Below are positions 4,116 to 58,900 of a stretch of 64,000 nt of DNA, in pieces (within the stretch, counting starts at the first letter, position 1; each line of letters starts with the position of its first letter). The stretch is taken from the NCBI GenBank assembly GCA_019322485.1, contig JAHWIK010000015.1, positions 23,216 through 87,215 of the forward strand, read 5' to 3'. A program made the position numbers and the translations under genes. The notes beneath the pieces were generated by a model, which worked only from the letters and a program-made list of their open reading frames with translations, was not told where the DNA came from and did no database searches. This DNA is from Candidatus Woesearchaeota archaeon (lineage in GTDB: Archaea > Nanobdellota > Nanobdellia > Woesearchaeales > JAHWIC01).

Positions 4116-4694
4116 TTATCTTCTGAATATCTTTATTCTTTGAAAAATTTTATGCTTTTTTTCAATAAAGACAAAAAAGTGTGCAACTGCAAAACCAAGC
4201 AAAGCACCACCAATAACATCGCTTAAGTAGTGCACATTTAAATAGATTCTGCTAAAAGCGACTATAACTGCAAAAAGAACCCAGAACCATTTGAGCTTCG
4301 GAAATTCTAAATCAAGGATCGGTATTGCTGTGAAAGAGGCGCTTGCATGCAGGCTGGGGAATGAGTAAACTGTTGATATTATGAAATGCGCTGCTACCAG
4401 GTCTTCTGGCCTTGGCCTTGCGATAATGGATTTAAGGATAAGGCACAATATTGACGAAGCCAGGAAACTTACCCATAGGACAGGGATCCATTCACGCTTG
4501 CGTTCCTGCCATAAGAACAAGGAGGTCATTACTATCAAGACTATGAATACAGAGCCGAAATGGGTTACTGAGCCTAGGGCATAGTCTAGGATTGGATTTC
4601 TTACCATGCTTACCAATACTAATTTGTCTAAAAAGAAACTGATTATGAGAAGTATGATTCCTGCACTGTAGAAGATAATGTTTTTTGTTTTCAT
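4116..4694 (-). CDS. PAP2-family phosphatase (polyprenyl-diphosphate / lipid phosphate phosphatase-like)
   Basis: All three PAP2 motifs are present: 'KSIIARPRP' (KxxxxxxRP), 'SFPSLHA' (PSGH-like) and 'SRIYLNVHYLSD' (SRxxxxxHxxxD). Membrane protein. Confidence 0.7.
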   Translation of the reverse strand: MKTKNIIFYSAGIILLIISFFLDKLVLVSMVRNPILDYALGSVTHFGSVFIVLIVMTSLFLWQERKREWIPVLWVSFLASSILCLILKSIIARPRPEDLVAAHFIISTVYSFPSLHASASFTAIPILDLEFPKLKWFWVLFAVIVAFSRIYLNVHYLSDVIGGALLGFAVAHFFVFIEKKHKIFQRIKIFRR

Positions 4695-38305: not shown

Positions 38306-39453
38306 ACATAGCAATCATAACAGCAGCTGGAAAAGGAACAAGGATGAATGAAAAAGTCAATAAAATATTGTTATCTTTAGTCGATAAATCAATAATTGAA
38401 GAAACAATCGAGGTTTTTGAGGCGTGTAAAGATATTGATGAGATAATTATTGTTGGAAACAGCGATGATATTGAATCATTAAACAAAATCAATGAAAAAA
38501 ATAATTATAAAAAAATTAAAAAAATCATTGAAGGCGGAGAACAACGGCAGGATTCAGTGTTTAATGGAATAAAATCCATTGAAAATGCGAGTAATGATGA
38601 TATTTTATTGATTCATAATGGTGCAAACCCCCTTGTAGACGAGAAAACGATTCTTGAATGTATTAAAGAAGCAAAGGAGCATGGGGCAGCTGTTGCTGCA
38701 ATGCCTGCAAAAGATACAATAAAACAGGTTGAGAATGGTTTTGTTGCTAAAACATTGGATAGAAAGCAGCTCTGGCAGATGCAGACACCGCAAACAATCC
38801 AGTTTGGGCTTGCGAAAGAGGCTTTTGAAAAGGCATTTGCTGATAATTTCTATGGAACTGATGATGTTGGGCTTGTAGAAAGGCTTGGAAAAAAGGTTAA
38901 GATTGTTGAGTGCAATACTGAGAACGTAAAAATCACAACAAAGAATGATTTAGAACAAGCAAGACTCTTGCTTAATGCTTCTGTTGTTGGAATCGGACAG
39001 GATTCCCACAAATTTACCGACGAGAAAAAGGATTTAGTTTTGGGTGGTGTAGTAATTCCAAATGAGCAGGGCTTAGAAGCAAACTCTGATGGTGATGTCA
39101 TCCTGCATGCCTTGTTTAATGCTTTAAGCCAGGCAGCTGGAGAAAAATCATTGGGAAATTATGCAGATTCAATGTGTGAGAATGGAATAAAAGACAGCAG
39201 AGAGTATCTAAGAGTGATTTTAGACATAATCAACAAGAAAAATTACAAGATAAATAATGTTGGCTTTATGATAGAAGCAAAAAAGCCAAGGCTAGGGGCT
39301 AATGAAGACAGAATAAAAGAGAATATTGCAAATTTATTGGGAATAACTAAAGATAAAGTTGGAATAACAGCAACCTCAGGAGAGGAATTAACTCCATTTG
39401 GCCAGGGCAAGGCAATACAGGTATTTTCAGTTGCAAGCTTAACAAGAAAATAA
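38302..39453 (+). CDS. ispDF: bifunctional MEP cytidylyltransferase / MEcPP synthase (IspDF)
   Basis: N-terminal 'IAIITAAGKGTRM' (IspD). C-terminal 'IGQDSHKF...GLEANSDGDVILHAL' (IspF). Confidence 0.85.
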   Translation: MNIAIITAAGKGTRMNEKVNKILLSLVDKSIIEETIEVFEACKDIDEIIIVGNSDDIESLNKINEKNNYKKIKKIIEGGEQRQDSVFNGIKSIENASNDDILLIHNGANPLVDEKTILECIKEAKEHGAAVAAMPAKDTIKQVENGFVAKTLDRKQLWQMQTPQTIQFGLAKEAFEKAFADNFYGTDDVGLVERLGKKVKIVECNTENVKITTKNDLEQARLLLNASVVGIGQDSHKFTDEKKDLVLGGVVIPNEQGLEANSDGDVILHALFNALSQAAGEKSLGNYADSMCENGIKDSREYLRVILDIINKKNYKINNVGFMIEAKKPRLGANEDRIKENIANLLGITKDKVGITATSGEELTPFGQGKAIQVFSVASLTRK

Positions 39454-39474
39454 TGAAAATCAAAGATTTTCAGT

Positions 39475-40344
39475 ATGTCAAAAACCAAGGTTTTTAACAT
39501 GATCCAGCTAAAAGCACACGCAAAGATAAACCTGACCTTAGATGTACTTGCAAGGCTGGATGACGGCTATCATCGGATAGAATCTATAAAACAGCAGGTT
39601 GGTTTGCACGATAAAATCTCATTAGGGCCATTGGATGATATAAAGGTAATCTGCAGCCATCCTAACATAACCACAAAAGAAAATCTTGTCTTTAAAACAG
39701 CATTGTTGCTAAAAAATGAATTTAATGTAGCAGAGGGAGCGAAGATAACAATAGAAAAAAATATTCCATTAGCTGCTGGCTTGGCTGGAGGCTCATCAGA
39801 CGCAGCAGCAACCCTGGTAGGATTAAACAAGCTTTGGAAACTTGAGCTTGATGAGCAGGAACTGACAAAATTAGCTGCAGAGATTGGAATGGATGTTCCT
39901 TTTTCTGTTGTTGGCGGTTCTTGTTTTGCAGAGGGCAAAGGCACTAAACTAAGCAGGATAGAGCTGCCTGAGATGCATGTGCTGTTAATCAACCCTGGTT
40001 TTGAAGTCTCTACAAGAACAGCTTACCAAAGCCTTGACTTGTCAAGAACAGGAAAGGCAATGGCAACAAAGAAACTATTGGAAGTAAGGAACATGGGTGT
40101 GAGAGAAATATCAAAGGTCATGCATAATGACTTTGAAGCTGTGGTGCTGGGGAAGCATTCTATTCTGAAAGAGATAAAGGGCAAATTAATGGAGAATAAT
40201 GCCTTGAATGCAATAGTATCTGGCTCAGGGCCAACTGTTTTTGGCTTGTTTGAGGATGAATCAACTATAAGCAAGGCTTACGAATCTCTTAAAGAAACTT
40301 ATCCATTTGTATTCATGACAAAAACAGTAGCGAGGAAAGAATGA
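39475..40344 (+). CDS. ispE: 4-diphosphocytidyl-2-C-methyl-D-erythritol kinase
   Basis: 'KINLTLDVLARLDDGYHRIESI' and GHMP-kinase motif 'PLAAGLAGGSSDAAA'. Confidence 0.8.
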   Translation: MSKTKVFNMIQLKAHAKINLTLDVLARLDDGYHRIESIKQQVGLHDKISLGPLDDIKVICSHPNITTKENLVFKTALLLKNEFNVAEGAKITIEKNIPLAAGLAGGSSDAAATLVGLNKLWKLELDEQELTKLAAEIGMDVPFSVVGGSCFAEGKGTKLSRIELPEMHVLLINPGFEVSTRTAYQSLDLSRTGKAMATKKLLEVRNMGVREISKVMHNDFEAVVLGKHSILKEIKGKLMENNALNAIVSGSGPTVFGLFEDESTISKAYESLKETYPFVFMTKTVARKE

Positions 40345-41153
40345 GAATTAAAAAAGCAAAGCACTCTGGATTTTGTTTTGGTGTTAAGAGGGCAGTAGAG
40401 TCAGCGCTGGGCACAGAGGGGGAAGTAAAGACATTAGGCCCATTAATACATAATCCTCAGTTTATAGCAGAGCTTGAGAAAAAGGGAATAAAATCTGTTG
40501 ATTCTGTCGATGAGGTTGAAAAAGGCTCTTTGATAATAAGGGCGCATGGTGTCCCGGATTCTGTTATAGAAAAGGCCAGGGGAAAAGGGCTTAATGTAAC
40601 TGATTTAACATGTCCTTTTGTCAGGAAGGTGCATGATTATGCTAAGGAATTCTACAAACAAGGCTATAGTGTGGTTGTGGTTGGAGAGAAAAACCATCCT
40701 GAGGTTGTAGGAATAATTGGCAACATTGATGGTATTGTTGTGGGCAATGCAGATGATGCAAGGAAACTTGGCAGGTTCGAAAAGATTGGAGTGGTTGCAC
40801 AAACAACACAATCACTTGAGAACTTTAACAATGTTGTTGATGAGCTGAAAAAGCATACAGATGAGTTAAAGGTACATAATACCATATGCTCTGAAACAGA
40901 TTCAAGGCAGAAACACGCTATTGAGCTGGCAAAAGAGGTTGACTTGATGATAGTTATTGGGGGGAGAAACTCTGGAAATACCAGAAGGCTTGCCCAGCTT
41001 TGCTCTAAATTAACTGAAACAAAGCATATTGAGTCTGAGGATGAGTTAAAGGAGGGGTGGTTTGCAGGCAAGGGTTGTGTTGGGATAACAGCTGGCGCTT
41101 CAACACCGGACAGCACAATCAAGAAGATTGAGGATAGAATCAGGGAGATATGA
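40341..41153 (+). CDS. ispH: 4-hydroxy-3-methylbut-2-enyl diphosphate reductase (IspH/LytB), short form
   Basis: 'HSGFCFGVKRAVESAL' N-terminal Cys motif, and further conserved Cys/His residues. ATGA overlap with ispE. Confidence 0.75.
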   Translation: MRIKKAKHSGFCFGVKRAVESALGTEGEVKTLGPLIHNPQFIAELEKKGIKSVDSVDEVEKGSLIIRAHGVPDSVIEKARGKGLNVTDLTCPFVRKVHDYAKEFYKQGYSVVVVGEKNHPEVVGIIGNIDGIVVGNADDARKLGRFEKIGVVAQTTQSLENFNNVVDELKKHTDELKVHNTICSETDSRQKHAIELAKEVDLMIVIGGRNSGNTRRLAQLCSKLTETKHIESEDELKEGWFAGKGCVGITAGASTPDSTIKKIEDRIREI

Positions 41154-42246
41154 GATTATGGAATTCATACAAGCAGTAGGGCAATACAAGGGAATAGTCA
41201 ATAAGACTTTAAGCACGTTCTTTGATAATCATATCAATAAAACACAGGATGGCTTTCTAAAATTTAATTATTCTACACTTAGGGATTATGTTTTGCGGGA
41301 CGGCAAGAGATTAAGGCCAATCACACTGATAATGGCTTACAAGTCAATAACTGATAATGATGAGCAGAAGATTTACATGCCTTCTTTGAGTATGGAACTG
41401 TTCCATGCTTCCTCATTAATACATGATGATATAATGGATGAGGATGATTTAAGGAGGGGAAAAGAGAGCATGCATACCCTGTTTAACCAGTGGTTTGTTG
41501 ATAATCACGGCCAGGCAGGCTATAATGGGCCTATATTTAACCAGTTATCTACTAAGTTTGGGGTTTCTATGGCAATACTGCAGGGAAATATACTGATTGC
41601 TTTAGGTGAGTCCTGCTTGTCAGGCTCCTCATTTGCCCCGGAACAGATAAAGGCTGCTTTAATGGTGTGCAATAACACAAACAAGGTAGTTAATGAAGGC
41701 CAGATACAGGACATTGTTCTGGAGACAAAGAGGGAGTTTACTGAAAATGATTATTTGAGTATGATTGCTAAGAAAACAGGCAAATTATTCAGCACATCTC
41801 TTGAGATAGGTGCAGTATTTGCAGGTGCAACAGATTCTCAGAGAAAAGCGCTTGATAATTATGCATTATCTGCAGCAACAACATTCCAGATACAGGACGA
41901 TATAATGGACATAAGCCCTGATATGAAAAAGGGGCATGAGGTTGGCTCTGATATAAAGCAGGGAAAAAGAACCTTGCTTGTTATGAAGGCCCTGGAAAAA
42001 GGGGATGAAGGCCAAAAAAAGGTTTTGTTTGATGCTCTTGGCAATGAGAAAGCAACACCAGAAGAAATAGAGATTGCTATCGATGTTATGCACGCTACAG
42101 GGGCAGTTGATTATGCAAAGAATCTTGCAGCTGATATGATTAAGAAAGGAAAGGATGCGCTTAAGGAAGCAGACCCTGCTTTATCTTCTGATGGATTGAA
42201 GTTCTTTAATGATTTAGCAGATTATATGGTAAATAGAAATGTCTAG
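41128..42246 (+). CDS. polyprenyl diphosphate synthase (GGPP synthase-like)
   Basis: First and second Asp-rich motifs 'LIHDDIMDEDD' and 'FQIQDDIMD'. Confidence 0.8.
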   Translation: MRIESGRYEIMEFIQAVGQYKGIVNKTLSTFFDNHINKTQDGFLKFNYSTLRDYVLRDGKRLRPITLIMAYKSITDNDEQKIYMPSLSMELFHASSLIHDDIMDEDDLRRGKESMHTLFNQWFVDNHGQAGYNGPIFNQLSTKFGVSMAILQGNILIALGESCLSGSSFAPEQIKAALMVCNNTNKVVNEGQIQDIVLETKREFTENDYLSMIAKKTGKLFSTSLEIGAVFAGATDSQRKALDNYALSAATTFQIQDDIMDISPDMKKGHEVGSDIKQGKRTLLVMKALEKGDEGQKKVLFDALGNEKATPEEIEIAIDVMHATGAVDYAKNLAADMIKKGKDALKEADPALSSDGLKFFNDLADYMVNRNV

Positions 42247-43382: not shown

Positions 43383-43554
43383 GAAATAATCAATAGCCCC
43401 GGGCAGATTCGAACTGCCGTCCCCGGCTGTTTTCGATGGAAATCGCAAAACTGTTGGAAATCTTTGATTTCCACCACCAAAAGCAGGGATGATTTGTCGG
43501 AAATCGGAGATTTCTGAGCAAATTGAAAATCTCCGATTTTCAATTGACCACTAC
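43383..43554 (-). tRNA. intron-containing tRNA candidate (172 nt, about 97 nt of intronic sequence; anticodon not resolved)
   Basis: Perfect 7-bp acceptor stem (AGCCCCG/CGGGGCT), 5' 'TAGTGTAGTGGTCA' D-region and canonical T-arm 'GGCAGTTCGAATCTGCC'. The interior contains stable hairpins (e.g. ATTGAAAATC/GATTTTCAAT). Confidence 0.45.
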
Positions 43555-43644
43555 ACTACGGGGCTCTAAAGCTAAGAAACTCCTCGCGAATATATAAAAG
43601 TTGTGATAAACTAAATCAAAAATTATTTATACCAGTGTTTTAGA

Positions 43645-47541: not shown

Positions 47542-49299
47542 ATGAAGTATCAAAATCTGGTTAATGTTTATCAAAAACTTGAAGCAACAACAAAGCGCTT
47601 AGAGAAGACCCATATTATCTCTGAGTTTTTGAAAACAATTGAAGCAGAGGATTTACCTAAGGTTATTCTGCTGCTGCAGGGAAAGCTATTTCCAAATTGG
47701 GATCCAAGCAAGATTGGTGTTGCTTCCAGGCTGATTTTGAAGGCTATTGCAATTTCTACTGGAATTGATACGAGCAAGGTTGAGAATAGCTGGAAGCGAA
47801 GCGGTGACCTGGGAAAAACTGCTGAAGAGCTTGTTGTGCTCAAGAAACAGGCAACACTCTTTTCAAAAGAGTTGGATGTAAAGAAGGTCTTTGATAACCT
47901 GAGAAAACTTGCAACCTTGGAAGGAGCAGGCACTGTTGAAAGAAAGATTCAATTAATTGCTGAGTTGCTGACAAGTGCAGAGCCGTTAGAAGCAAGATAT
48001 ATAGTACGGACTGTTTTAGGTGAGCTAAGGGTTGGTGTTGGAGAAGGAAGCTTGCGTGATGCAGTTGTTTGGGCATTCTTTACAGATGAGATAGGCTTTA
48101 CATATAATACTAAAGAAAATAATATTGAGATTGAGAACAGGGATGATTATAACAAGTATGCAAATGCTGTTCAGCAGGCTTACGATTTGACAAATGATTT
48201 TTCTTCTGTTGCTAAGGTTGCTAAGACTGCTGGCATTGATGGCTTGTTGAATATGGAGCTTGAGGTTAACAGGCCTGTTAAGGTTATGCTTGCCATAAAG
48301 GTAAAGGATATTGGTGATGGCTTTGAAAGGGTTGGAAAGCCAGCTGCTGTTGAGTTTAAGTATGACGGCTTTAGGATGCAGATACATAAAGCGCATGATA
48401 AGATAACTATATTTACCCGGCGTTTAGAGGATGTCACAAGACAGTTTCCTGAGGTTGTTAAGTATGTTAAGGATAATGTTAAGGGCAAGGAATTTATTAT
48501 TGATTCTGAGGCTGTTGGTTACGACCCTAAAACAGATAAGTATCTGCCTTTCCAGAGTGTTTCCCAGAGAATAAAAAGAAAGTATGATATTGAGAAGATG
48601 GCTAAGGATTTCCCTGTTGAGCTTAATGTTTTTGATATAATCTATTTTGAGGGAAAGAATCTGATAAAAGAAGGATTTGGCAGAAGACGAGAGGTTCTCT
48701 GGAAGATTGTAAACCAGGTTCCTAAGAGGATAGTTCTTGCAAAGAATCTGATAACCTCTAGTGAGGATGAGGTTAGGGCTTTTTATAATGAATCTTTAGA
48801 GGCTGGCAATGAGGGGATTATGTTTAAGACTCTTGATGCTCCCTACAAGCCTGGTGCTCGTGTTGGCCATATGGTAAAGTTAAAGCCTACAATGGAAACA
48901 CTTGATTTAGTCATAGTTGGTGCTGACTGGGGCGAGGGTAAAAGAGCTTCATGGCTTTCAAGCTTTACAATTGCATGCATTGATGATAATGGAAATTTTC
49001 TTGAGGTTGGAAAGGTTGGCACTGGTATAAAGGAAAAAGAAACTGAAGAAGGGGTAACGTTTAAGCAGCTTACTGAATTGCTTAAGCCTTTGATAATTGC
49101 AGAGAAAGGCAAAGAGGTTAAGATACAGCCGAAGATTGTTATTGAGATAACCTATGAAGAGATACAGAAAAGTCCTACTTATGCTTCTGGTTATGCTTTA
49201 AGGTTTCCTAGGCTGCTTAATATTCGTGAAGACCGTTCTGCTGAGGATATAAGCACTTTAGAGATGGTTGAGGAGTTTTATCTTGGACAGAAGAAATAA
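47542..49299 (+). CDS. lig: ATP-dependent DNA ligase (archaeal/eukaryotic type)
   Basis: Adenylation motif I 'EFKYDGFRMQIHK' (KxDGxR) and OB-fold C-terminus. 585 aa. Confidence 0.85.
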   Translation: MKYQNLVNVYQKLEATTKRLEKTHIISEFLKTIEAEDLPKVILLLQGKLFPNWDPSKIGVASRLILKAIAISTGIDTSKVENSWKRSGDLGKTAEELVVLKKQATLFSKELDVKKVFDNLRKLATLEGAGTVERKIQLIAELLTSAEPLEARYIVRTVLGELRVGVGEGSLRDAVVWAFFTDEIGFTYNTKENNIEIENRDDYNKYANAVQQAYDLTNDFSSVAKVAKTAGIDGLLNMELEVNRPVKVMLAIKVKDIGDGFERVGKPAAVEFKYDGFRMQIHKAHDKITIFTRRLEDVTRQFPEVVKYVKDNVKGKEFIIDSEAVGYDPKTDKYLPFQSVSQRIKRKYDIEKMAKDFPVELNVFDIIYFEGKNLIKEGFGRRREVLWKIVNQVPKRIVLAKNLITSSEDEVRAFYNESLEAGNEGIMFKTLDAPYKPGARVGHMVKLKPTMETLDLVIVGADWGEGKRASWLSSFTIACIDDNGNFLEVGKVGTGIKEKETEEGVTFKQLTELLKPLIIAEKGKEVKIQPKIVIEITYEEIQKSPTYASGYALRFPRLLNIREDRSAEDISTLEMVEEFYLGQKK

Positions 49300-50502
49300 T
49301 TATTTATTCGGAACAAAATACATTATTCCTAATCCTATAACAAAGAATCCCATCAACAGCCATAAAGCTGGCTGGTAGCCTGCTCTGACAACAATAAAAC
49401 CAAACAGTACAGGTCCAATCAAGCCAGAGAATTTCTCTGTTAAACCTTGGAAGCCGAAGAATTGCGCCAACTTGTTCTTTGGGCTTAGGTGTACTAACAT
49501 TGGCCTGTTTAAGGTCCAGATTGCACCTAAGGCTGCTCCGCCAAGGCAGCCAGCTATTATGAATGTAACTACATTGTTAACCTTCATTAATAAGTATATG
49601 ATTCCAATCCAAAGAAACAAAGCAGTAACTATAGATCTCTTTGAGCCGATCTTGTCTCCAAGTTTTCCGAATATTAAAGCACCTAAAGCAGAGGTTAAAG
49701 CCATTCCTGCATAAGCATAAAAGAAATTAACCATACTGATTCCTATTTGCTCGCGGCCGTAAAGATAAAGGAATACAATTGCAGTATTCATTCCGTCTGT
49801 ATATAACAAACAAGCTATTAAGAAAATGAATAAGCTCTTGTGTTTTCTTGCCTCCCTGAAGGTTGATTTAATTGCTGAATAGGCTTTTTTAATCCCTTCT
49901 TTTAGGCTTACTGTTGCTTTTCTTACTTTGTCTTTGACAAGGATGAAGGTGATTATTGAAAAACCTAGGAAGAAAATTGCTGTTGCTGGAAAGATTGATT
50001 TTACTGCTGCTTCTGTTTCCCAGCCAAGCATACTCATTAATATGTATGCCATGACCAGGCTTAGGATTGTTCCAACATAACCCATTGCAACACCATAGCC
50101 AGAGATCTTTGACATATTCTTTTTTGTCGAGATATCTGTTAGTATTGCATCATAGACATCCAGGCATGCATGGAAGGTAAGTGTTGCAAATACTCCAAGA
50201 ATTAAGGCACCATACAATCCAATATAAGGTGTTAATGCTGTTGCAGTAACGCAAAGCAGGGTAAAGAAAATAACATAAGGCATCTTCCTTCCAGTTGAGT
50301 CAGATAAAGCACCAATAAAAGGAACAAATACGCCAGCAAGGAATATTCCAAGGCTTGTTACTAAGCCCACATGGAATTCATTCCCGCCCAAGAAAACCTT
50401 GATTAAAACAGGAAAGAAGAATGTTACATATAAAGCAGAGAAAGCAGTATTTGCTAAGTCATATATTGTCCAGCCAAAGATTTTTTTTGTTAGTTTCTTC
50501 AC
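49300..50502 (-). CDS. major facilitator superfamily transporter
   Basis: About 12 TM helices and the MFS-like loop 'GALSDSTGRK'. Confidence 0.6.
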   Translation of the reverse strand: MKKLTKKIFGWTIYDLANTAFSALYVTFFFPVLIKVFLGGNEFHVGLVTSLGIFLAGVFVPFIGALSDSTGRKMPYVIFFTLLCVTATALTPYIGLYGALILGVFATLTFHACLDVYDAILTDISTKKNMSKISGYGVAMGYVGTILSLVMAYILMSMLGWETEAAVKSIFPATAIFFLGFSIITFILVKDKVRKATVSLKEGIKKAYSAIKSTFREARKHKSLFIFLIACLLYTDGMNTAIVFLYLYGREQIGISMVNFFYAYAGMALTSALGALIFGKLGDKIGSKRSIVTALFLWIGIIYLLMKVNNVVTFIIAGCLGGAALGAIWTLNRPMLVHLSPKNKLAQFFGFQGLTEKFSGLIGPVLFGFIVVRAGYQPALWLLMGFFVIGLGIMYFVPNK

Positions 50503-50619: not shown

Positions 50620-52584
50620 ATGGTACCAGATAATGGAGAAAAGGATACTGGTAACTCTACAGAAGGACCTCCAGAGGACACCCAAGGAGAACCTACAGAG
50701 AGCCCTACAGAAGCCTCTACAGAAGAACCTGAAGAAGAAAAGCTTCTAGTAATAAGACCTTTTGATGAGGTTAAGGCGGATTTGATAAGGCTATCTGAAT
50801 CAACGGATGATGCTGAGAAGGAAGTGATTCGTGGTAGGTTACATGAGGACTTCGATTCTGTCTATCCTATGTTAAAGGGACTGCCTCGCGGGGAAGATGC
50901 TACACTTCTTTCCTACCCTGGGCAAGAGAATATGGTTTCTGCTGTGGATATGGTTGCTAAAAAACCCAAAAAGAAATATGTAGATATGGCAAGCCAACAA
51001 CTAGGCAGGCTTTATGAATCGTATCAGGCAGAGGTTCTTCAAGCGAAATGGAATACTGAAGCTGAGAAACTGCAGTCAGCAGTAGCAAACCCACAAGAGA
51101 CAATAACCCATCTAAGAACTTCCCTTTCTTCTCATCTGTCAGGGCTTCATAGAGATGTTCGTGCTTGTACCATCGACCTATTAATAAAATATAGGGACTT
51201 TAAAATAGGGGAAGATCCTGCTCGGGATGAGGAGAGGATCACTGATAGTTTGCTTGACCCTGAAGATGGGTATTACATCTTAGGTTATACCATAAGGATT
51301 TTTGAGGATGTAAGCGCTAGATATAATGATGTCCGGCTTAAGCAACTTGCACTGAATCCAAGTATTGCTGATACAGCCCGTACCTTATTGCAGATAGTTA
51401 ATGAGGCTCGAAAGATAACTGGGGAGGCTGGCCTTAGTTTAGAAATCTCGTGCAGGGAAGAACTTGAAGCTATGCTGGAGAAAGGAGAGCCTTCTCCTGC
51501 TGATTCAGAGAGGATACTTGCCACTAATAACGAAATACTAATACAACTTGGTAATTTCTTGCTTGATGCTGTTCAAGGCACAAGTTTAGAAGGTAAGTTG
51601 GATTATAAGAAACAAGACTTGCCTGAGAGAGAGCAGGCAGATAAACCAAAAGCGCCACGCAGGGAATATAAAAGGTCTGCTCCGAGCAGGGTATTTTCAA
51701 ATGAATCTCACTCTGAACTTGCAGGTCTTATTTGCACGCTTTCTGCTTCAGAGAATAACGAGGAGTGGGCAGAGATGAGGGGGTGTATAAAAGGAATGCT
51801 GAGTGAGGCGTATAGAGCAATAGGGATAACAGAGGCACATGTGAACGAAATACGTTTGACCTATCCTAAAGAGGAGGAGTTATGTTCTTTGGCTGATAAA
51901 ATTCCTGAACAAAAGGAGACAACTTATGAATTAACTGCTAAGGTGAGAGCTCTTTATGAAGCTGGCACTGCTTACACTGCCCTGGCTTTTTGGAAGAGAT
52001 GGGTGGCTTCATTAAAGGAAGAGTTGGCAACTGAATCTATGGTATATGATACCTGGAAAGGTGCTTTATCAACTTATATGAAGCATTGCGCACCTGAATC
52101 TAGGGACGAAGTTAATAAACGTTTGATAGCGCGTAGAAGGTCAGTCATGGGAGAAGAAGAAAGCCAGAAGTATAGTGATGAGGAAATACTTTTAGCAGTA
52201 AATTCCGAGCTGGATGACAGAGGTAGGCCTGATTTAATGTTAGATCATTCTGCAATATTTTTTGAGGTTGCTATAGAAGATTACGCTCGTTTAGCAAATG
52301 ATGTATGTAAGAAATGGAGGGGCACAACTGAGTTTATTGGTGCTATGCTTAGGTTTTGTGGCGGTGTTTCTCCTTTGGCAGGCTCGTTAGGTATAACTGC
52401 AGATGATTCAGACAGCACCAAACTTAAGGAGTCGTATGAAAAAGGGCTGGGCTATGTTATGGAAGATGAGCATGACCCAAAAGATGTTGCTAATACTTTA
52501 GGTACTTCAAAGAATGTATTGAAGCAGTACGGGGAAATTTATATTAAAATTCTTGAGAAGGTTGCTGAAGAGAAACAGAAATAA
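50620..52584 (+). CDS. large acidic cytoplasmic protein of unknown function (654 aa), compositionally atypical, ending 1 nt before a tRNA gene
   Basis: No TM helix. N-terminal Pro/Glu/Thr acidic stretch. Higher GC than neighbours. Confidence 0.5.
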   Translation: MVPDNGEKDTGNSTEGPPEDTQGEPTESPTEASTEEPEEEKLLVIRPFDEVKADLIRLSESTDDAEKEVIRGRLHEDFDSVYPMLKGLPRGEDATLLSYPGQENMVSAVDMVAKKPKKKYVDMASQQLGRLYESYQAEVLQAKWNTEAEKLQSAVANPQETITHLRTSLSSHLSGLHRDVRACTIDLLIKYRDFKIGEDPARDEERITDSLLDPEDGYYILGYTIRIFEDVSARYNDVRLKQLALNPSIADTARTLLQIVNEARKITGEAGLSLEISCREELEAMLEKGEPSPADSERILATNNEILIQLGNFLLDAVQGTSLEGKLDYKKQDLPEREQADKPKAPRREYKRSAPSRVFSNESHSELAGLICTLSASENNEEWAEMRGCIKGMLSEAYRAIGITEAHVNEIRLTYPKEEELCSLADKIPEQKETTYELTAKVRALYEAGTAYTALAFWKRWVASLKEELATESMVYDTWKGALSTYMKHCAPESRDEVNKRLIARRRSVMGEEESQKYSDEEILLAVNSELDDRGRPDLMLDHSAIFFEVAIEDYARLANDVCKKWRGTTEFIGAMLRFCGGVSPLAGSLGITADDSDSTKLKESYEKGLGYVMEDEHDPKDVANTLGTSKNVLKQYGEIYIKILEKVAEEKQK

Positions 52585-52700
52585 TGCCCCTGCCGAGAAT
52601 CGAACTCGGGTCTTCAGGTTTTTGCAAAATTGCCGCAACCTAATATTCTTTTTGGCTATGCCGAACCTTGTTCAGCAAGTATCCACTATACTACAGGGGC
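52585..52700 (-). tRNA. intron-containing tRNA candidate (116 nt; anticodon not resolved)
   Basis: 7-bp acceptor (GCCCCTG/CAGGGGC), discriminator A, 5' 'TAGTATAGTGGATAC' D-region and T-arm 'CCGAGTTCGATTCTCGG'. About 40 extra nucleotides internally, including an AGGTT/AACCT helix. Confidence 0.45.
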
Positions 52701-52712
52701 AATAATTTGTTT

Positions 52713-54976: not shown

Positions 54977-57130
54977 TTATACCTTTTCTGTTACAACGTA
55001 CGTCTTGTAAGTATACTGCCTTGGTGGTATTGGTTGAGGTGCGGGTTGAGGTGTTGGTTCTGGTGCAGGCTGTGGTGCTGGTGCAGGCGCTGGTGTTGGC
55101 TCAGGAGTAGGCTCCGGAGCTGGTTCTGGTGCAGGCTGTGGTGCTGGTGCAGGTGTTATTGGTGTTGGTTGCGGTGCGCTTGTAACAACCATTTGAGGAA
55201 GGGTTTGCCGTTCTATTACACTAACAATCCATCTGACACTTACAGCAGCTTTGCCATCAGAGATAATAACTCTCACCTCTTTTTTTCCAGGAGAAGTAAA
55301 CCAACGTCTATGCAGCGGGCCCCCTTTGTAGCGCGCAAGTGGACCAAATATCCATTCATAGCTTAGTGCATCACCATCAGGGTCCTGGGCAGATGCTTGG
55401 AACAAAACAGAGCTGTTGACATAAACACCAAATTGACCCACCATTGGGCTGACATTCCATACAACAGGCTCCCTGTTTGTGTTGTGCACAAGGACTACTG
55501 CATCTTCGCTTGAATTTAAGTCACCATCTGAAGCTGTAAAGGTGACTGTATATTGTTTTGCTTCCAGCCTTCTTGTCTCATCATGGCTGGGGGTCCAGCT
55601 AAACCCGTCTGCATCAAAACTTGAGCCGGCAGGCACATCTTCTGCAGATGTGACAATCCTGTCATTATCTGGGTCATAGGAATTAACATTAAAGTGTAAA
55701 ACTGCTCCTTCATCTACATCCTGCTGAGGTATTTCCTCAAGAACAGGCGGCCTGTTAACATTATTTACAACAACTGTTACGTTCTTCTCAACAGAGGTTT
55801 TGCTGTCAGATAATTTAATAAATACTGTGTAGGTGCCTGCATCATCATAACCAGTCCCTTTCACAGCTTTGTTCATCCAGCCGCTATATCTATAAGATAC
55901 CTTATCACCATCAAGGTCATATCCATTAGGCTCTAATACAAGGGTTTCCCCTTCATTCATGACTATTGTTCCCATATCTTCAAGCACAGGGGCCCTATTC
56001 TCTTCCATGACCCTAATCTTTATGGTTTTGGTTGTGCTAAATTCATTGCTTTCAGCCAGGAATGTTATAGTTTGAGTTCTGCTGAGTAAGTGGAAATTGT
56101 CAAGGAAATATGTAAAGAGGTTTGTTTTTTTAACAAAATCCTTGCTTGGTGTCCATTTAAAGACATTGCCATCAAATCCTGAATTTTCCGGCGCTTCAAG
56201 AACTGTGATTATTATATCATCGCCATCTGGGTCGCTGGCATTTACTACTAAGTTTACTTCCTCACCTTCTCTTACAGTTATATCATGGAGTGGTTCAATT
56301 ATCGGTTCGCGGTCTACATCATAAACTACAAGGTCTACCTTTTTTGAATATTCAAAATCCCTGTCCCTTATTGTTATTGTTACCATGTATTCACCATCAT
56401 CCTCATAGGTGGTTTGCCAGAAATTTTCATTGCCTATTGGCTCTGATATCTCATATTCAAGATGGTAGGCTCCTAAATCAGGAAGCTCGATACTTACTAT
56501 GTCTGTTTCATCTACTTCAATATAGCTTATGTTATCCAGGAGTTGTGCCCTGTCAACATCCTCAATATCCATAGTCCATTCCTGGGATGTTTTAAGCGTG
56601 CTGTCAGATACAACTACTTTTATGGTATGCGTTCCCTGGTCAAAATAGTCTGCGTAATACTCAATCTCTTGCTCCCTGCCTAAGAATTCATCATCAATGA
56701 ACCATTTGTAGGTTAGTTCATCTTCGTTTATGTCAGAGGCCTCAGCCCTGAAGTAGAGGCTTTCACCCTCTTCAATTGACAAAGAGGTATCTTCTGGGTA
56801 GAAATCATATATTTCAGGCTGTTCTTCTTTTTTGTTAACAACGATTATGACCTCTTCTTCTGTGATAAGGTCGCCGTCAGAAGCAGTGACTGAGGCAATA
56901 TAATTTCCAGCATCTCCATAGGTAGTTTGCCATTCTCCCTCGCTGTTTAAGGGGTATGTGTAGGAATATTCTAATGTATCACCGTCAGGATCATCAAAAG
57001 AAGGTTTTATGGAGACAAGGTCAGTCTCATTAACTATCATATTAGTTAGAGAATAAGTTATTGGCAATACAATAATTAGAACTAATACTAAAATTAACCA
57101 TTTCTTATCCATTAACCCAACCCCCAACAT
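54977..57130 (-). CDS. surface protein with multiple Ig-like (PKD/cadherin-like 'DPDGD') repeats and a C-terminal Pro/Thr/Ala-rich linker
   Basis: Signal/TM N-terminus. Repeated '...DPDGD.L.Y.Y...W.TTY.D.G.Y....SDG' modules. '(PAPEPT)n' tail. Confidence 0.6.
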   Translation of the reverse strand: MLGVGLMDKKWLILVLVLIIVLPITYSLTNMIVNETDLVSIKPSFDDPDGDTLEYSYTYPLNSEGEWQTTYGDAGNYIASVTASDGDLITEEEVIIVVNKKEEQPEIYDFYPEDTSLSIEEGESLYFRAEASDINEDELTYKWFIDDEFLGREQEIEYYADYFDQGTHTIKVVVSDSTLKTSQEWTMDIEDVDRAQLLDNISYIEVDETDIVSIELPDLGAYHLEYEISEPIGNENFWQTTYEDDGEYMVTITIRDRDFEYSKKVDLVVYDVDREPIIEPLHDITVREGEEVNLVVNASDPDGDDIIITVLEAPENSGFDGNVFKWTPSKDFVKKTNLFTYFLDNFHLLSRTQTITFLAESNEFSTTKTIKIRVMEENRAPVLEDMGTIVMNEGETLVLEPNGYDLDGDKVSYRYSGWMNKAVKGTGYDDAGTYTVFIKLSDSKTSVEKNVTVVVNNVNRPPVLEEIPQQDVDEGAVLHFNVNSYDPDNDRIVTSAEDVPAGSSFDADGFSWTPSHDETRRLEAKQYTVTFTASDGDLNSSEDAVVLVHNTNREPVVWNVSPMVGQFGVYVNSSVLFQASAQDPDGDALSYEWIFGPLARYKGGPLHRRWFTSPGKKEVRVIISDGKAAVSVRWIVSVIERQTLPQMVVTSAPQPTPITPAPAPQPAPEPAPEPTPEPTPAPAPAPQPAPEPTPQPAPQPIPPRQYTYKTYVVTEKV

Positions 57131-57156
57131 TAAAAATTAAAAAAATAAAAAAGAAA

Positions 57157-58272
57157 TTATCTTTGTTCTATTCCTAGGAATACAGGTGCCCTGTTAACGT
57201 TTTCAACAGCCACGTTTATCTGCTGGCTTACTGAAAGGTCACCGTCGCTTACTGTTATTGTTACATCATAGCTGCCTGAATCATCATAGGTTGTATCCCA
57301 CGCAAAGACATTCCCTTCCTGCTCAAATTTGTCGCTATCTGCTGCAAAGGATAGGCCGTCTCCATCTAGGTCAGAGGCTTCTACAACAATTATTACAGGC
57401 TCATTTTCATTAACTATGATGTTGTCTAGTTCTTCCATTTCAGGCGGCCTGTTAACATTTTCAACTGTAATAGCCCATATCTGTGATGTCTCAAGTGTGC
57501 CGTCGGTTATTGATAACTTAATAGTGTGTGAACCAGCACTGTCATAGCCTAGGTCAAATGCGAATGAGGTGTCGGTTGATACTTCCTCGCCATCAATCTT
57601 CCATTCATAATCCAGGTAATCACCATTAAGGTCTGATGCTGATACGCTGAATTCTATGATGTTATCCTCTGCTATGATTAATTCTGTATCTGCTGGATTA
57701 GCAAACTCAATTATTGGGGCCTCTTCTTTTCTGTTTACAATTATTAATACATCCTGTGAAGCAGAAAGGTCTCCATCAGATGCGGTTATTGTTACTGTGT
57801 ATTCACCCTCATCTCCATAAGTAGTTTGCCAATCACCTATGCCATCAAGAGGTGATGTGAATGCGTAAGTTAAAGGGTCTCCATCAGGGTCAGTTGCGTC
57901 AGGTTCTAAGCTGACAAGCTCTGTTTCTTCTACTATGATAACAACTGCTTGCTGGTCAACAACGTCTACATCTTCTAATACTACTTCCTCCTCTTCCTCA
58001 ATAATCTCAATGACCTCTTCAATGTCTTCCTCGACCTCTTCTTCCTCTTCCTCATCTCTTCTGAAGATGTCAAGAGGGCTTGTTCTTTCTTCCTCCTCTT
58101 CCACTTCTTCTTCCTCTTCTGCAACCTCCTCATCTTCTTCACCCTCAACAACAATATCATCCATGCTTATTGTAGAAACATCAGATTTGCCATATATATC
58201 TTCATAGATTTGACATCCACTCAATAAGAACAAGACTATCACACCAATTACAAGTAAATATTTCTTAAACAT
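57157..58272 (-). CDS. lipoprotein with a poly-Glu acidic region and the same Ig-like repeat type
   Basis: 'LFLLSGCQ' lipobox. 'EEEEEVEEEEE' runs. 'DPDGDPLTYAFTSPL...WQTTYGDEGEYTVTITASDGD' repeats. Confidence 0.55.
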   Translation of the reverse strand: MFKKYLLVIGVIVLFLLSGCQIYEDIYGKSDVSTISMDDIVVEGEEDEEVAEEEEEVEEEEERTSPLDIFRRDEEEEEEVEEDIEEVIEIIEEEEEVVLEDVDVVDQQAVVIIVEETELVSLEPDATDPDGDPLTYAFTSPLDGIGDWQTTYGDEGEYTVTITASDGDLSASQDVLIIVNRKEEAPIIEFANPADTELIIAEDNIIEFSVSASDLNGDYLDYEWKIDGEEVSTDTSFAFDLGYDSAGSHTIKLSITDGTLETSQIWAITVENVNRPPEMEELDNIIVNENEPVIIVVEASDLDGDGLSFAADSDKFEQEGNVFAWDTTYDDSGSYDVTITVSDGDLSVSQQINVAVENVNRAPVFLGIEQR

Positions 58273-58452
58273 ATACCAACACCTCCAGGTTTTTGTGTTT
58301 TTATTATTTTTATCATTATAAAATGGGAACTTCTATATAAACTTTATGGTAGTCAAAGCTATAAAACCATTTTTTTTTTACCACTGTTTCCGACGACAAA
58401 CTTAGACTTTTTTCGTAACTGGGTTTGGACGAATCGGAAAAATTTGCTGAAA

Positions 58453-58596
58453 AATCTGAAAAAAATGGGCCCGCTGTGACCTAAGGGTTTCACCCGATAG
58501 ACCCCTGTAGGGAACATAAAGTTCCCTGCCGCAATTTGCTGTATAGTTAAGATTGCGGATTGTTAAGTTTTTGAAAAAAATGGGCCCGCCGTGACT
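58453..58596. repeat. direct repeat of a tRNA 3' end plus trailer ('tgaaaaaaatgggcccgc(t/c)gtgac') at 58455-58481 and 58571-58596. The first copy is an orphan 3' tRNA fragment.
   Basis: Two near-identical 26-nt copies about 116 bp apart. The second copy is the genuine 3' end of tRNA-Ile. Confidence 0.5.
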
Positions 58597-58712
58597 TTCT
58601 AGCCACAAGTTTTAGAACTTGATGACATTTGAACACGGGACCACTCGATGTCTGTATTTCGCTTGCGCGAAATGTATCAGTCGAGCGCGCCACCAGACTA
58701 TGCCACGGGCCC
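58581..58712 (-). tRNA. tRNA-Ile (anticodon GAT) with two introns: about 25 nt in the anticodon loop (37/38) and about 33 nt in the T-loop/T-stem junction
   Basis: Manual fold: acceptor GGGCCCG/CGGGCCC+A; anticodon stem CTCGA/TCGAG with loop CTGATA|A; variable TGGTC; T-arm CCGTG-TTCAA(AT)...CACGG. The introns form hairpins (TTTCGC/GCGAAA). Confidence 0.6.
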
Positions 58713-58728
58713 ACTATCATAACAAAAA

Positions 58729-58856
58729 CGCCTCTGGGCAGATTTTCCCGCCATAAATCTTTCGGATTTAATGCGTCTCGAACTGCCGACCTTGTGATTT
58801 CTTCACCAAAGAATTGGTGTAACAGTCACACGCTCTACCTGCTAAGCTACAGAGGC
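58729..58856 (-). tRNA. tRNA-Asn (anticodon GTT) with two introns: about 21 nt in the anticodon loop and about 34 nt in the T-loop
   Basis: Manual fold: acceptor GCCTCTG/CAGAGGC+G; D-arm GCTT-AGCAGGTA-GAGC; anticodon stem TGTGA/TCACA with loop CTGTTA|A; variable AGGTC; T-arm GGCAG-TTCGA[34 nt]AT-CTGCC. Confidence 0.65.
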
Positions 58857-58900
58857 ATTAAGTTCAAGAATTGATACTATATTTATATAATTTTCTATGG

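What the first reader, a model, noticed from the sequence alone, without database searches (positions are those of the whole stretch)
58581..58856. Two adjacent tRNA genes (Ile-GAT, Asn-GTT), each carrying both an anticodon-loop intron and a T-loop intron
Hand folding gives canonical cloverleaves only after removing two insertions per gene. These are about 25 and 33 nt in tRNA-Ile, and about 21 and 34 nt in tRNA-Asn. Each insertion forms its own hairpin, which is compatible with a bulge-helix-bulge motif. Multiple or non-canonical introns, especially in the T-loop, are restricted to a few archaeal lineages and are a useful taxonomic and mechanistic marker. The ORF-track ORFs overlapping them are spurious.
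Basis: seen in the sequence. Interest (0 to 1): 0.6.

Follow-up and report, generated by a model that had tools for sequence, protein, structure and literature searches.

The report
Two archaeal tRNA genes, two introns each
Two neighbouring tRNA genes (Asn and Ile) of an uncultured Woesearchaeota archaeon are each interrupted twice, once in the anticodon loop and once in the T-loop; this kind of gene is already known from other archaea, but standard tRNA finders miss these two completely.

Summary
Confirmed. On the minus strand, 58856..58729 encodes tRNA-Asn(GUU) and 58712..58581 encodes tRNA-Ile(GAU). ARAGORN and Rfam find no tRNA in the 64-kb window until the insertions are removed.

The decisive evidence is comparative. 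Related Woesearchaeota contigs carry the same Asn-Ile pair with no intron, one intron or both. One relative (L033) has Ile exons 100% identical to the window's, with an uninterrupted T arm. All eight exon differences from an intron-less Asn orthologue are compensatory pairs.

All four introns sit in relaxed bulge-helix-bulge motifs. The central helix has 3 of 4 pairs; in the T-loop it uses the universal U54-U55-C56.

The Asn and Ile T-loop introns resemble each other (z up to 6.2). The Ile copy is older, so it was probably copied into the neighbouring gene.

The kind is known: multi-intron archaeal tRNAs, position 59/60, and DPANN tRNA disruption are all published. These are new members, not a new mechanism. 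Splicing itself is inferred, not shown.

Side finds: two more doubly interrupted tRNA genes in the window, and a 115-bp insert flanked by a repeat of the tRNA-Ile 3' end.

The parts
58881..58890 (-). Archaeal TATA-like box (TTATATAAAT) 25-34 nt upstream of tRNA-Asn nt 1
   Evidence: Read from the sequence. The same (T)ATATAAATA box sits at the same distance in L004, L012, L027, L030, L032 and L033. Promoter function is inferred, not shown.
58820..58856 (-). tRNA-Asn(GUU) exon 1, nt 1-37
   Evidence: The first 25 nt are identical in 21 metagenome loci.
58799..58819 (-). tRNA-Asn anticodon-loop intron, 37/38, 21 nt (CACCAATTCTTTGGTGAAGAA)
   Evidence: Bulge-helix-bulge score: central helix (H) 3/4, exon helix (h) 5/5, intron helix (h') 5/5. 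Absent in intron-less orthologues, 19-44 nt in others.
58777..58798 (-). tRNA-Asn exon 2, nt 38-59
   Evidence: Differences in the anticodon stem and T stem from orthologues are all compensatory.
58743..58776 (-). tRNA-Asn T-loop intron, 59/60, 34 nt (ACGCATTAAATCCGAAAGATTTATGGCGGGAAAA)
   Evidence: Central helix 3/4 (U54-A, U55-A, C56-G), exon helix = T stem 5/5. This is the only junction giving the TTCGAGT loop of intron-less orthologues. Homologous introns occur in L012, L027, L004/L028 and L030. Covariance model R1 scores it 67.2 bits, but this sequence is one of those R1 was built from.
58729..58742 (-). tRNA-Asn exon 3, nt 60-73 (no encoded CCA), followed by T5 at 58724-58728
58675..58712 (-). 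tRNA-Ile(GAU) exon 1 (standard nt 1-37, 9-nt D loop, A12.C23 mismatch)
   Evidence: Identical exon in L004, L012, L030, L032 and L033.
58650..58674 (-). tRNA-Ile anticodon-loop intron, 37/38, 25 nt (CATTTCGCGCAAGCGAAATACAGAC)
   Evidence: Central helix 3/4, exon helix 5/5, intron helix 6/6 with a GCAA loop. Replaced by unrelated 14-51-nt introns in relatives, absent in L016.
58628..58649 (-). tRNA-Ile exon 2 (standard nt 38-59)
58595..58627 (-). tRNA-Ile T-loop intron, 59/60, 33 nt (TGTCATCAAGTTCTAAAACTTGTGGCTAGAAAG)
   Evidence: Central helix 3/4, exon helix 5/5. Absent in L033, whose exons are identical. Present in L004/L028, L030 and L032, there with the central helix 4/4. Model R1 scores it 60.3 bits, but this sequence is one of those R1 was built from.
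58581..58594 (-). tRNA-Ile exon 3 (nt 60-73, TCACGGCGGGCCCA), followed by T7 at 58574-58580
58466..58580 (-). 115-bp insert downstream of tRNA-Ile. It ends in a second, degenerate copy of the Ile 3' exon plus T-run. The 24-nt direct repeats lie at 58572-58595 and 58457-58480, with 1 mismatch.
   Evidence: The repeat occurs twice against 0.01 expected by chance. The insert is absent in L004/L028, L030 and L033 and present in L032 at 84.7% identity. Its nature is unresolved; it belongs to the neighbourhood, not to the tRNA genes.

Best explanation
These are two functional tRNA genes of a Candidatus Woesearchaeota (DPANN) archaeon, tRNA-Asn(GUU) and tRNA-Ile(GAU).

Proposed pathway:
- They are transcribed from a TATA-box promoter upstream of Asn. 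With only 16 nt between the genes, they are probably co-transcribed.
- Each precursor carries two protein-spliced (EndA-type) introns, one at the canonical 37/38 position and one at 59/60 in the T-loop.
- Each intron folds with its flanking exons into a relaxed helix-bulge-helix-bulge-helix motif.
- In the T-loop the outer helix is the T stem. The 4-bp central helix pairs the universal U54-U55-C56 (plus R57) with a GAA(N) tract near the 3' end of the intron.
- The two splice sites lie in 3-nt bulges on either side of the central helix.
- The archaeal splicing endonuclease cuts both bulges, an RtcB-type ligase joins the exons, and the CCA-adding enzyme (one is encoded at 6557-7807) adds CCA, which neither gene encodes.

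Shown here: the gene structure, the junctions, the conservation and covariation of the motif, and presence/absence of the introns among relatives.

Inferred: transcription, cleavage, ligation, and the type of endonuclease.

Evolution: the T-loop intron is one sequence family. It is older in Ile and was probably copied into the adjacent Asn gene. It has since been lost precisely in at least one lineage.
For: - Cloverleaves are restored only after both removals.
- Junctions recovered independently from intron-less orthologues match.
- The 8 exon differences between the window Asn and intron-less L006 fall in 4 stem pairs (29-41, 31-39, 49-65, 50-64), each changed on both sides.
- L033 Ile has identical exons and no T-loop intron. 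It passes Rfam tRNA at 48.3 bits against a gathering score of 29.
- Bulge-helix-bulge geometry fits all four introns and all orthologues.
- On 9 T-arm+intron modules, 95.8% of cells pair, against 29-48% when partners are slid. Eight pairs change on both sides. U54-A and C56-G are invariant; the partner of U55 is A in 7 of 9 modules and G in 2.
- The intron cores of Asn and Ile are significantly alike: z up to 6.2, 0 of 2000 shuffles as good. Anticodon-loop introns used as controls give z between -0.6 and 1.5.
- Distribution on the tree from the neighbouring M64 peptidase: the Ile T intron is in every member with a readable Ile gene except L033; the Asn T intron is only in window/L027/L028/L030.
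- The organism is a Woesearchaeote. DPANN archaea are reported to have endonucleases with an extra L3 loop, associated with more disrupted tRNA genes (PMC5829648).
- 59/60 is a recognised intron position (PMC4090602).
- A CCA-adding enzyme is encoded in the window.
Against: - No RNA data: splicing and the mature ends are not observed.
- No splicing endonuclease or RtcB gene lies in the window (Pfam), so the enzyme type in this genome is unknown.
- All four central helices have one mismatch. A strict-specificity alpha4 or alpha'2 endonuclease might not cut them.
- tRNA-Ile has an A12.C23 mismatch in the D stem, although it is conserved in five relatives.
- A T5 run lies between the two genes and could terminate transcription before Ile.
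- I could not check whether the genome holds other, uninterrupted Asn or Ile genes.
Confidence: 0.9

Rival explanations
1. The two loci are tRNA pseudogenes inactivated by insertions. Functional copies lie elsewhere in the genome.
For: Standard detectors reject them. The neighbourhood shows insertion and duplication activity: the 115-bp insert with a repeat of the tRNA 3' end, and L012's Ile gene interrupted by foreign GC-rich DNA.
Against: Exons are identical or changed only by compensatory pairs across relatives whose neighbouring protein is only 63-87% identical. The insertions keep a splice motif with covariation. All four tRNA genes seen in this 64-kb window are interrupted, which fits a genome-wide habit rather than decay.
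Confidence: 0.04
2. The T-loop insertions are not spliced. They stay in the mature tRNA as an expanded T arm, or are removed by a route other than the bulge-helix-bulge endonuclease.
For: No RNA evidence is available. The central helices are imperfect at 3 of 4 pairs. No endonuclease gene is in the window.
Against: The insert pairs with U54-U55-C56, which must be free to form the T-loop and the elbow with the D-loop (established tRNA structure). The motif geometry is conserved and places the cuts exactly where intron-less orthologues are continuous. The same position is a known endonuclease-type intron site.
Confidence: 0.04
3. The cloverleaves are a hand-folding artefact. With two freely chosen deletions, many sequences can be made to look like a tRNA.
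For: The brute-force control shows the danger: two arbitrary deletions from another locus let ARAGORN call about 90 anticodons.
Against: Orthologues with 0, 1 or 2 introns and the same exons exist. The best-deletion mapping is unique. Rfam hits the less interrupted orthologues at 48-71 bits.
Confidence: 0.01

Closest known systems
Multiple-intron tRNA genes of Thermoproteales and other Crenarchaeota (Sugahara 2007/2008; reviewed in PMC4033280 and PMC4090602)
   Same: Several endonuclease-type introns per tRNA gene. One is at 37/38 and others are at non-canonical positions, including 59/60, 53/54, 20/21 and 22/23. The bulge-helix-bulge motifs are relaxed. Ordinary tRNA finders miss them.
   Different: The host is a mesophile-like, AT-rich (39% G+C) DPANN Woesearchaeote, not a hyperthermophilic crenarchaeote. 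The endonuclease is probably different: an alpha4 type with the L3 loop according to PMC5829648, rather than (alpha-beta)2 with the crenarchaeal loop. That was not tested here.
tRNA intron transposition in Thermoproteales (Fujishima 2010, as summarised in PMC4033280 and PMC4090602)
   Same: Similar intron sequences occur in tRNA genes of different specificity. Here the Asn and Ile T-loop introns are alike (z up to 6.2), and a structurally similar 59/60 intron sits in tRNA-Glu of L034.
   Different: Here the two copies occupy the same position (59/60) in two adjacent genes. Local duplication or gene conversion is therefore as likely as transposition. The scale seen is small: one family in two or three genes.
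DPANN tRNA gene disruption linked to L3-loop endonucleases (Kaneta et al. 2018, PMC5829648)
   Same: Same superphylum, and one Woesearchaeota genome was included. That paper reports non-canonical and multiple introns and incomplete tRNA sets that call for manual curation.
   Different: As far as I could read it, that paper gives counts per genome. It does not describe this locus, the 59/60 family or its presence/absence among relatives. Its supplements were not available.
tRNA-fragment direct repeats at borders of integrated elements (SSV and pNOB8 types; the Caldiarchaeum tRNA-Thr case, Sugahara 2012, PMC3293823)
   Same: [quoted passage not shown] The insert is present or absent among relatives.
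   Different: No integrase or recombinase is present, and only about 90 bp of unique DNA lies between the repeats. In L032 the repeat extends into the T-loop intron. No match was found in viral contigs.

Membership tests
Archaeal endonuclease-spliced (bulge-helix-bulge) tRNA introns | Removing the insert restores a canonical cloverleaf with the correct conserved nucleotides | tested here: met
   ARAGORN calls Asn(gtt) and Ile(gat) after removal. The spliced sequences equal contiguous orthologous sequence.
Archaeal endonuclease-spliced (bulge-helix-bulge) tRNA introns | Two 3-nt bulges separated by a 4-bp helix at the exon-intron junctions, or a recognised relaxed form (definition as in PMC5829648) | tested here: met
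   Met only in the relaxed form. The central helix has 3 of 4 pairs in all four window introns, the exon helix 5/5, and the intron helix is present. Ile orthologues have 4 of 4. Covariation count.
Archaeal endonuclease-spliced (bulge-helix-bulge) tRNA introns | The host encodes a splicing endonuclease able to cut relaxed or non-canonical motifs, plus an RtcB-type ligase | not testable with these tools
   Neither gene is in the 64-kb window (Pfam), and the rest of the genome is not available. The literature reports L3-loop endonucleases in DPANN.
Archaeal endonuclease-spliced (bulge-helix-bulge) tRNA introns | Excision observed in RNA | not testable with these tools
   No transcriptome data.
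Rfam RF00005 (tRNA) | Score at or above the gathering threshold of 29 bits | tested here: not met
   The unspliced window genes fail: Asn reaches 20.4 bits as a partial hit and Ile gets no hit. The cause is the T-loop intron. Orthologues without it pass: L033 Ile with identical exons 48.3 bits, L032/L033 Asn 59.3, L006 Asn 70.9. The tool cannot score a spliced sequence.
Transposed or duplicated tRNA intron family (Thermoproteales type) | Significantly similar intron sequences in tRNA genes of different specificity | tested here: met
   Asn against Ile T-loop intron cores, with the strand that pairs with the T-loop excluded: z up to 6.2, 0 of 2000 shuffles as good. Anticodon-loop introns as controls: z -0.6 to 1.5.
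Split or permuted tRNA gene (considered for the 58466-58580 element) | A tRNA half with a leader or trailer that pairs with the partner half to form a splice motif | tested here: not met
   The element holds only a copy of nt 60-73, with a T-stem change (CACAG). It has no 5' T-stem strand. Its upstream 4 nt do not pair with U54-C56 of Ile (hand check).
Integrated mobile element at a tRNA gene | Direct repeat of the tRNA end flanking an insert that relatives lack | tested here: met
   A 24-nt repeat with 1 mismatch, 115 bp apart. The insert is absent in L004/L028, L030 and L033.
Integrated mobile element at a tRNA gene | Integrase or recombinase gene, or recognisable element genes, between the repeats | tested here: not met
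   Only about 90 bp lie between the repeats and there is no credible ORF. No match in viral contigs or elsewhere in the window or loci.

The most novel reading that the evidence does not exclude
The 59/60 insert may be a portable intron family. Its 3' GAA tract pairs with the universal T-loop sequence U54-U55-C56, and any T stem can supply the outer helix. It could therefore function in any tRNA without adaptation. That would explain its presence in Ile, Asn and (by structure) Glu genes of related Woesearchaeota. Close relatives here capture a copy event (Ile to the adjacent Asn) and a precise loss (L033). This would be intron gain and loss caught in action outside Thermoproteales, in a lineage with a different endonuclease. 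It would also be linked spatially to a recombination hot spot at the tRNA-Ile 3' end: the 115-bp insert, whose flanking repeat in L032 starts inside the intron.
Probability: 0.4. Interest if true: 0.55.

Novelty: new member of a known kind. Interest (0 to 1): 0.4.

Why it matters
Practical: in this lineage ordinary tools see none of the four tRNA genes in 64 kb. tRNA counts, 'missing tRNA' claims and completeness estimates for Woesearchaeota genomes assembled from metagenomes will therefore be too low unless intron-aware searches are used. Kaneta 2018 called for exactly this kind of manual curation.

Evolutionary: the set of close relatives carrying 0, 1 or 2 introns in the same two genes is a compact natural series. 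It includes a T-loop intron shared between neighbouring genes. Such a series is useful for asking how endonuclease-type introns are gained, copied and precisely lost.

Biochemical: the motif predicts that the endonuclease of this lineage accepts a central helix built on the T-loop with a mismatch at position 57. That can be tested in vitro.

Tried and rejected
- ARAGORN default, ARAGORN -i and Rfam on the raw window: no call at the locus.
- Exact-protein look-ups of three window ORFs: not on record.
- Synteny through the DNA ligase: it breaks before the tRNA locus. The M64 peptidase neighbour worked instead.
- Brute-force two-deletion search with ARAGORN on the 52584-52701 candidate: far too permissive and uninformative. 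I kept it as a control.
- Sigma-70 promoter and intrinsic-terminator scan: not applicable to archaea, nothing useful.
- Viral-contig scans for the repeat and for the core of the insert: no hits.
- BLAST of the insert against the window and all loci fetched up to that point: only itself.
- Reading the 115-bp element as an alternative 3' exon or a split-tRNA half: rejected. There is no pairing with U54-C56, and CACAG would mismatch the T stem.
- Reading its conservation as evidence of function: not supported. Its identity to the L032 copy (84.7%) is about that of the adjacent intergenic DNA (81.9%).
- A strict bulge-helix-bulge motif for the D-arm insert of tRNA-Gln: not found.
- Supplements of Kaneta 2018: not held. 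Sugahara 2007: not held.

Full report
**What is there**

Read on the minus strand, 58856..58729 is GCCTCTG...CAGAGGCG and 58712..58581 is GGGCCCG...CGGGCCCA. Neither ARAGORN nor Rfam at gathering score reports any tRNA in the whole 64-kb window. In permissive mode Rfam gives only a 20.4-bit tRNA hit over part of the first gene.

I removed CACCAATTCTTTGGTGAAGAA (21 nt) and a 34-nt T-loop insert from the first gene. From the second I removed CATTTCGCGCAAGCGAAATACAGAC (25 nt) and a 33-nt T-loop insert. ARAGORN then draws clean cloverleaves for tRNA-Asn(gtt) and tRNA-Ile(gat). With only the T-loop insert removed, ARAGORN's intron mode also finds both genes. With only the anticodon-loop insert removed, it finds nothing.

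**Is it more than a hand-folding artefact?**

Taken alone, 'a cloverleaf appears after two deletions' is weak. I deleted two arbitrary segments from another candidate gene (52584-52701), and ARAGORN called about 90 different anticodons. The claim therefore rests on comparative data.

The organism is a Candidatus Woesearchaeota archaeon. Its DNA ligase is 100% identical to an NCBI Woesearchaeota protein on a 92.6-kb contig.

- A scan of species-representative genomes with Ile exon 1 found two relatives.
- A metagenome scan with Asn exon 1 found 21 loci.
- The conserved neighbour gene, an M64 peptidase, gave five more syntenic loci.

Across these loci, tRNA-Asn occurs in three forms:

- With no intron (seven loci). 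The anticodon loop is CTGTTAA and the T-loop is TTCGAGT.
- With a 37/38 intron only.
- With both introns (window, L012, L027, L004=L010=L028=L029, L030).

tRNA-Ile occurs in four forms:

- With a 37/38 intron only.
- With a D-loop intron, alone or with the 37/38 intron.
- With 37/38 and T-loop introns (window, L004/L028, L030, L032).
- In L033, with exons 100% identical to the window's, a 14-nt 37/38 intron and an uninterrupted T arm (CCGTG TTCAAAT CACGG).

Rfam scores that L033 gene at 48.3 bits, against a gathering score of 29. It scores the less interrupted Asn orthologues at 59-71 bits.

An unbiased search for the pair of deletions that best matches the intron-less orthologue returns these junctions:

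- Asn: 36-37 (21 nt) and 59 (34 nt).
- Ile: standard 37 (25 nt) and 59-60 (33 nt).

The eight remaining Asn differences fall in four stem pairs (29-41, 31-39, 49-65, 50-64), each changed on both sides. The short ORFs that overlap them are spurious.

**The splice motifs**

I scored each junction for the canonical geometry. This is a 3-nt bulge holding each splice site, a 4-bp central helix (H) between the bulges, an exon-exon helix (h) outside and an intron helix (h') inside. The motif is defined this way in PMC5829648. The position of the cut within each bulge is taken from my own knowledge of the endonuclease-RNA structures.

| Intron in the window | Central helix H | Exon helix h | Intron helix h' |
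|---|---|---|---|
| Asn 37/38 | 3/4 (G34.A mismatch) | 5/5 | 5/5 |
| Ile 37/38 | 3/4 | 5/5 | 6/6, closed by a GCAA loop |
| Asn 59/60 | 3/4 | T stem, 5/5 | present |
| Ile 59/60 | 3/4 | T stem, 5/5 | present |

In both T-loop introns H is U54-A, U55-A and C56-G, with a purine-purine mismatch at position 57. A long, bulged intron hairpin follows. The precursors fold more stably than shuffled sequences, with z = -4.4 and -4.2. For Asn the minimum-energy fold shows these helices; for Ile it keeps the acceptor stem, the anticodon stem and both intron hairpins but replaces the T stem with an alternative pairing.

In orthologues the same geometry holds. Ile introns in L004, L030 and L032 have H 4/4.

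I aligned nine T-arm-plus-intron modules, five from Asn and four from Ile. On this alignment 95.8% of cells form standard pairs, against 29-48% when the 3' partners are slid by 1-3 columns. Eight pairs change on both sides. The U54-A and C56-G pairs never vary, and U55 pairs with A in 7 modules and G in 2. The motifs are thus relaxed versions of the canonical one, and they are conserved.

**Mechanism**

Shown here:

- the gene structure;
- the junctions;
- the conserved motif;
- an upstream TATA-like box (58881-58890) conserved in six relatives;
- T-runs after each gene;
- no encoded CCA;
- a CCA-adding enzyme gene at 6557-7807.

Inferred:

- transcription, probably of both genes together, since only 16 nt separate them;
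- cleavage in the four bulges by the splicing endonuclease;
- exon joining by an RtcB-type ligase;
- CCA addition.

The window contains no endonuclease or ligase gene, so the enzyme type is unknown here. Kaneta et al. 2018 report that DPANN lineages carry endonucleases with an extra 'L3' loop. They analysed one Woesearchaeota genome among these. The L3 loop is associated with more disrupted tRNA genes, and tRNA sets in these lineages remain incomplete pending manual curation.

**Evolution of the T-loop intron**

I compared the cores of the Asn and Ile T-loop introns, leaving out the tract that pairs with the T-loop. They are significantly alike, with z up to 6.2 and 0 of 2000 shuffles as good. 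For example, L030 Asn against L030 Ile has 20 of 28 aligned positions identical. Anticodon-loop introns used as controls give z between -0.6 and 1.5.

Pairwise identity of the neighbouring M64 peptidase groups the loci as ((window, L027), L028, L030, (L032, L033)), with L034 outside.

- The Ile T-loop intron is present in every member of that clade whose Ile gene could be read, except L033. The simplest reading is that it was lost precisely there. The contig of L027 ends before its Ile gene.
- The Asn T-loop intron is present only in window, L027, L028 and L030 (plus L012).

The simplest history is that the intron is older in Ile and was copied into the adjacent Asn gene at the same position.

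A covariance model built from the nine modules finds only these two copies in the window. It also picks up a tRNA-Glu(UUC) with a 33-nt 59/60 intron in the more distant L034. In L034 a tRNA-Gly(GCC) also carries a 53/54 intron.

The central helix uses the universal U54-U55-C56, and any T stem can supply the outer helix. Such an intron should therefore be transferable between tRNAs without adaptation. That is my inference, not a demonstrated fact.

**Comparison with what is known**

- Multiple endonuclease-type introns per tRNA gene are established for Thermoproteales and other Crenarchaeota. Non-canonical positions, explicitly including 59/60, 53/54, 20/21 and 22/23, are listed in reviews (PMC4090602; PMC4033280).
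- Similar introns in different tRNA species have been described there as intron transposition.
- Disruption in DPANN is reported by Kaneta 2018.

In the searchable literature I found no description of this locus or of a 59/60 family in Woesearchaeota. That search covers open-access papers only. I therefore class this as new members of a known kind.

**Surroundings**

*The 115-bp insert.* It lies directly downstream of tRNA-Ile (58466-58580). It ends in a second copy of the Ile 3' exon plus the T-run. The 24-nt direct repeats are at 58572-58595 and 58457-58480, with one mismatch; they occur twice against 0.01 expected.

- L004/L028, L030 and L033 lack the insert. Their post-Ile sequence continues with the sequence that follows the second repeat in the window.
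- L032 has the insert, and there the repeat extends about 10 nt into the T-loop intron.
- Its identity to the L032 copy (84.7%) is about that of the flanking intergenic DNA (81.9%). Conservation therefore does not argue for a function of its own.
- The architecture resembles integration borders at archaeal tRNA genes (PMC3293823). However, there is no integrase, no viral match and no other copy. I leave it unresolved.

*Two more interrupted tRNA genes in the window.*

- tRNA-Gln(UUG) at 43565..43394 has a 48-nt 37/38 intron with a strict motif (H 4/4) and a D-arm insert of about 52 nt. Its orthologue in L001 has only a 22-nt D-arm insert.
- A probable tRNA at 52700..52584 is best read as Arg(GCG), with a 13-nt 37/38 intron and a second insert of about 34 nt. 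The assignment is not secure.

**Verdict**

It is a real and neatly documented example of a known phenomenon in a lineage where it is poorly described. It also carries a modest evolutionary story: a shared T-loop intron family with gain and loss among close relatives. Interest is 0.4.

Noticed in passing
window 58466-58580 (-); direct repeats at 58572-58595 and 58457-58480: A 115-bp insert after tRNA-Ile is bounded by a 24-nt repeat of the Ile 3' exon plus T-run. It contains two conserved inverted repeats (CCGCAAT..ATTGCGG and AGGGAAC..GTTCCCT) and a GGGTCT/GGGCCC stem. It is present in L032 (about 5941-6063) and absent in L004/L028, L030 and L033. In L032 the repeat reaches into the T-loop intron. 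It could be an integration scar, a mini-element or a small RNA; this is unresolved.
   Followed up: partly
window 43394-43565 (-): tRNA-Gln(UUG) is interrupted twice: by a 48-nt 37/38 intron with a strict bulge-helix-bulge motif (43429-43476) and by a D-arm insert of about 52 nt near 22/23, for which I found no canonical motif. The L001 orthologue (4371-4464, -) has only a 22-nt D-arm insert.
   Followed up: partly
window 52584-52700 (-): Another interrupted tRNA gene (acceptor GCCCCTG/CAGGGGC, T arm CCGAG TTCGATT CTCGG). The best reading is Arg(GCG), with a 13-nt 37/38 intron (central helix 4/4) and an insert of about 34 nt at the junction of the D arm and anticodon stem. The identity is not secure and no orthologue was fetched.
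   Followed up: partly
L034 2877-3181: A tRNA cluster in a more distant Woesearchaeote: tRNA-Glu(UUC) with a 33-nt 59/60 T-loop intron, an intron-less tRNA-Val(UAC), and tRNA-Gly(GCC) with a 12-nt anticodon-loop intron plus a 27-nt intron at 53/54.
   Followed up: partly
L006 2148-2292, L008, L011, L021, L016 (tRNA-Ile genes): In other relatives tRNA-Ile(GAU) carries an intron of about 29-35 nt in the D-loop (around 20/21), with or without the 37/38 intron. The same gene is therefore interrupted at three different positions across the lineage.
   Followed up: no
L012 (reverse strand) about 470-1361: In the closest metagenomic relative, the tRNA-Ile gene runs normally to the TTC of the T-loop. 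It then continues into unrelated GC-rich DNA: a fragment resembling, by my own reading, the C-terminus of an aldehyde:ferredoxin oxidoreductase, and a helix-turn-helix ORF start. This is either a real insertion at the T-loop or a chimeric assembly.
   Followed up: partly
L027 3845-3885, L030 4455-4495, L032 5778-5815 (Asn-Ile spacer): A conserved hairpin with compensatory changes (GTCAAAACTC GAAA GAGTTTTGAC and variants) lies between the two tRNA genes in three relatives. It is missing in the window, L012, L004 and L033.
   Followed up: no
window 58273-58465: The intergenic DNA between the tRNA locus and the PKD-domain gene is about 82% identical to L032, although the neighbouring M64 protein is only 63% identical. 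The conserved blocks are AGTTACGAAAAA...TTGTCGTCGGAA..AGTGGT, followed by a TATA box and leader. This may be a strong promoter and 5' UTR, or another small RNA.
   Followed up: partly
window 33997-42246 (+): An apparently complete bacterial-type MEP isoprenoid pathway cluster in an archaeon: DXS, IspG (GcpE), a protein with a PEP-utiliser domain, fused IspD/IspF, a GHMP kinase (IspE-like), IspH (LytB) and a polyprenyl synthase. It is syntenic in L001 and L002.
   Followed up: no
window 15432-17414 (-): The ribosomal protein L10/P0 ORF is 660 aa, and the two Pfam domains end by residue 180. By my recollection archaeal P0 is roughly half that length, so it would carry a long C-terminal extension. 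The region has strong negative AT and GC skew.
   Followed up: no
window 26013-32063 (-) and 9911-12505 (-): There is a 2016-aa ORF that I did not search, and an 864-aa ORF with no Pfam match. The tRNA locus is flanked by several PKD/Big_9/cadherin-like surface proteins (54977-58272).
   Followed up: no
L001 10249-11298, L002, L003: Relatives carry an extra 349-352-aa ORF with a faint LAGLIDADG_3 hit between the DNA ligase and the MFS transporter. The window lacks it (ligase 47542-49299 abuts MFS 49300-50502).
   Followed up: no
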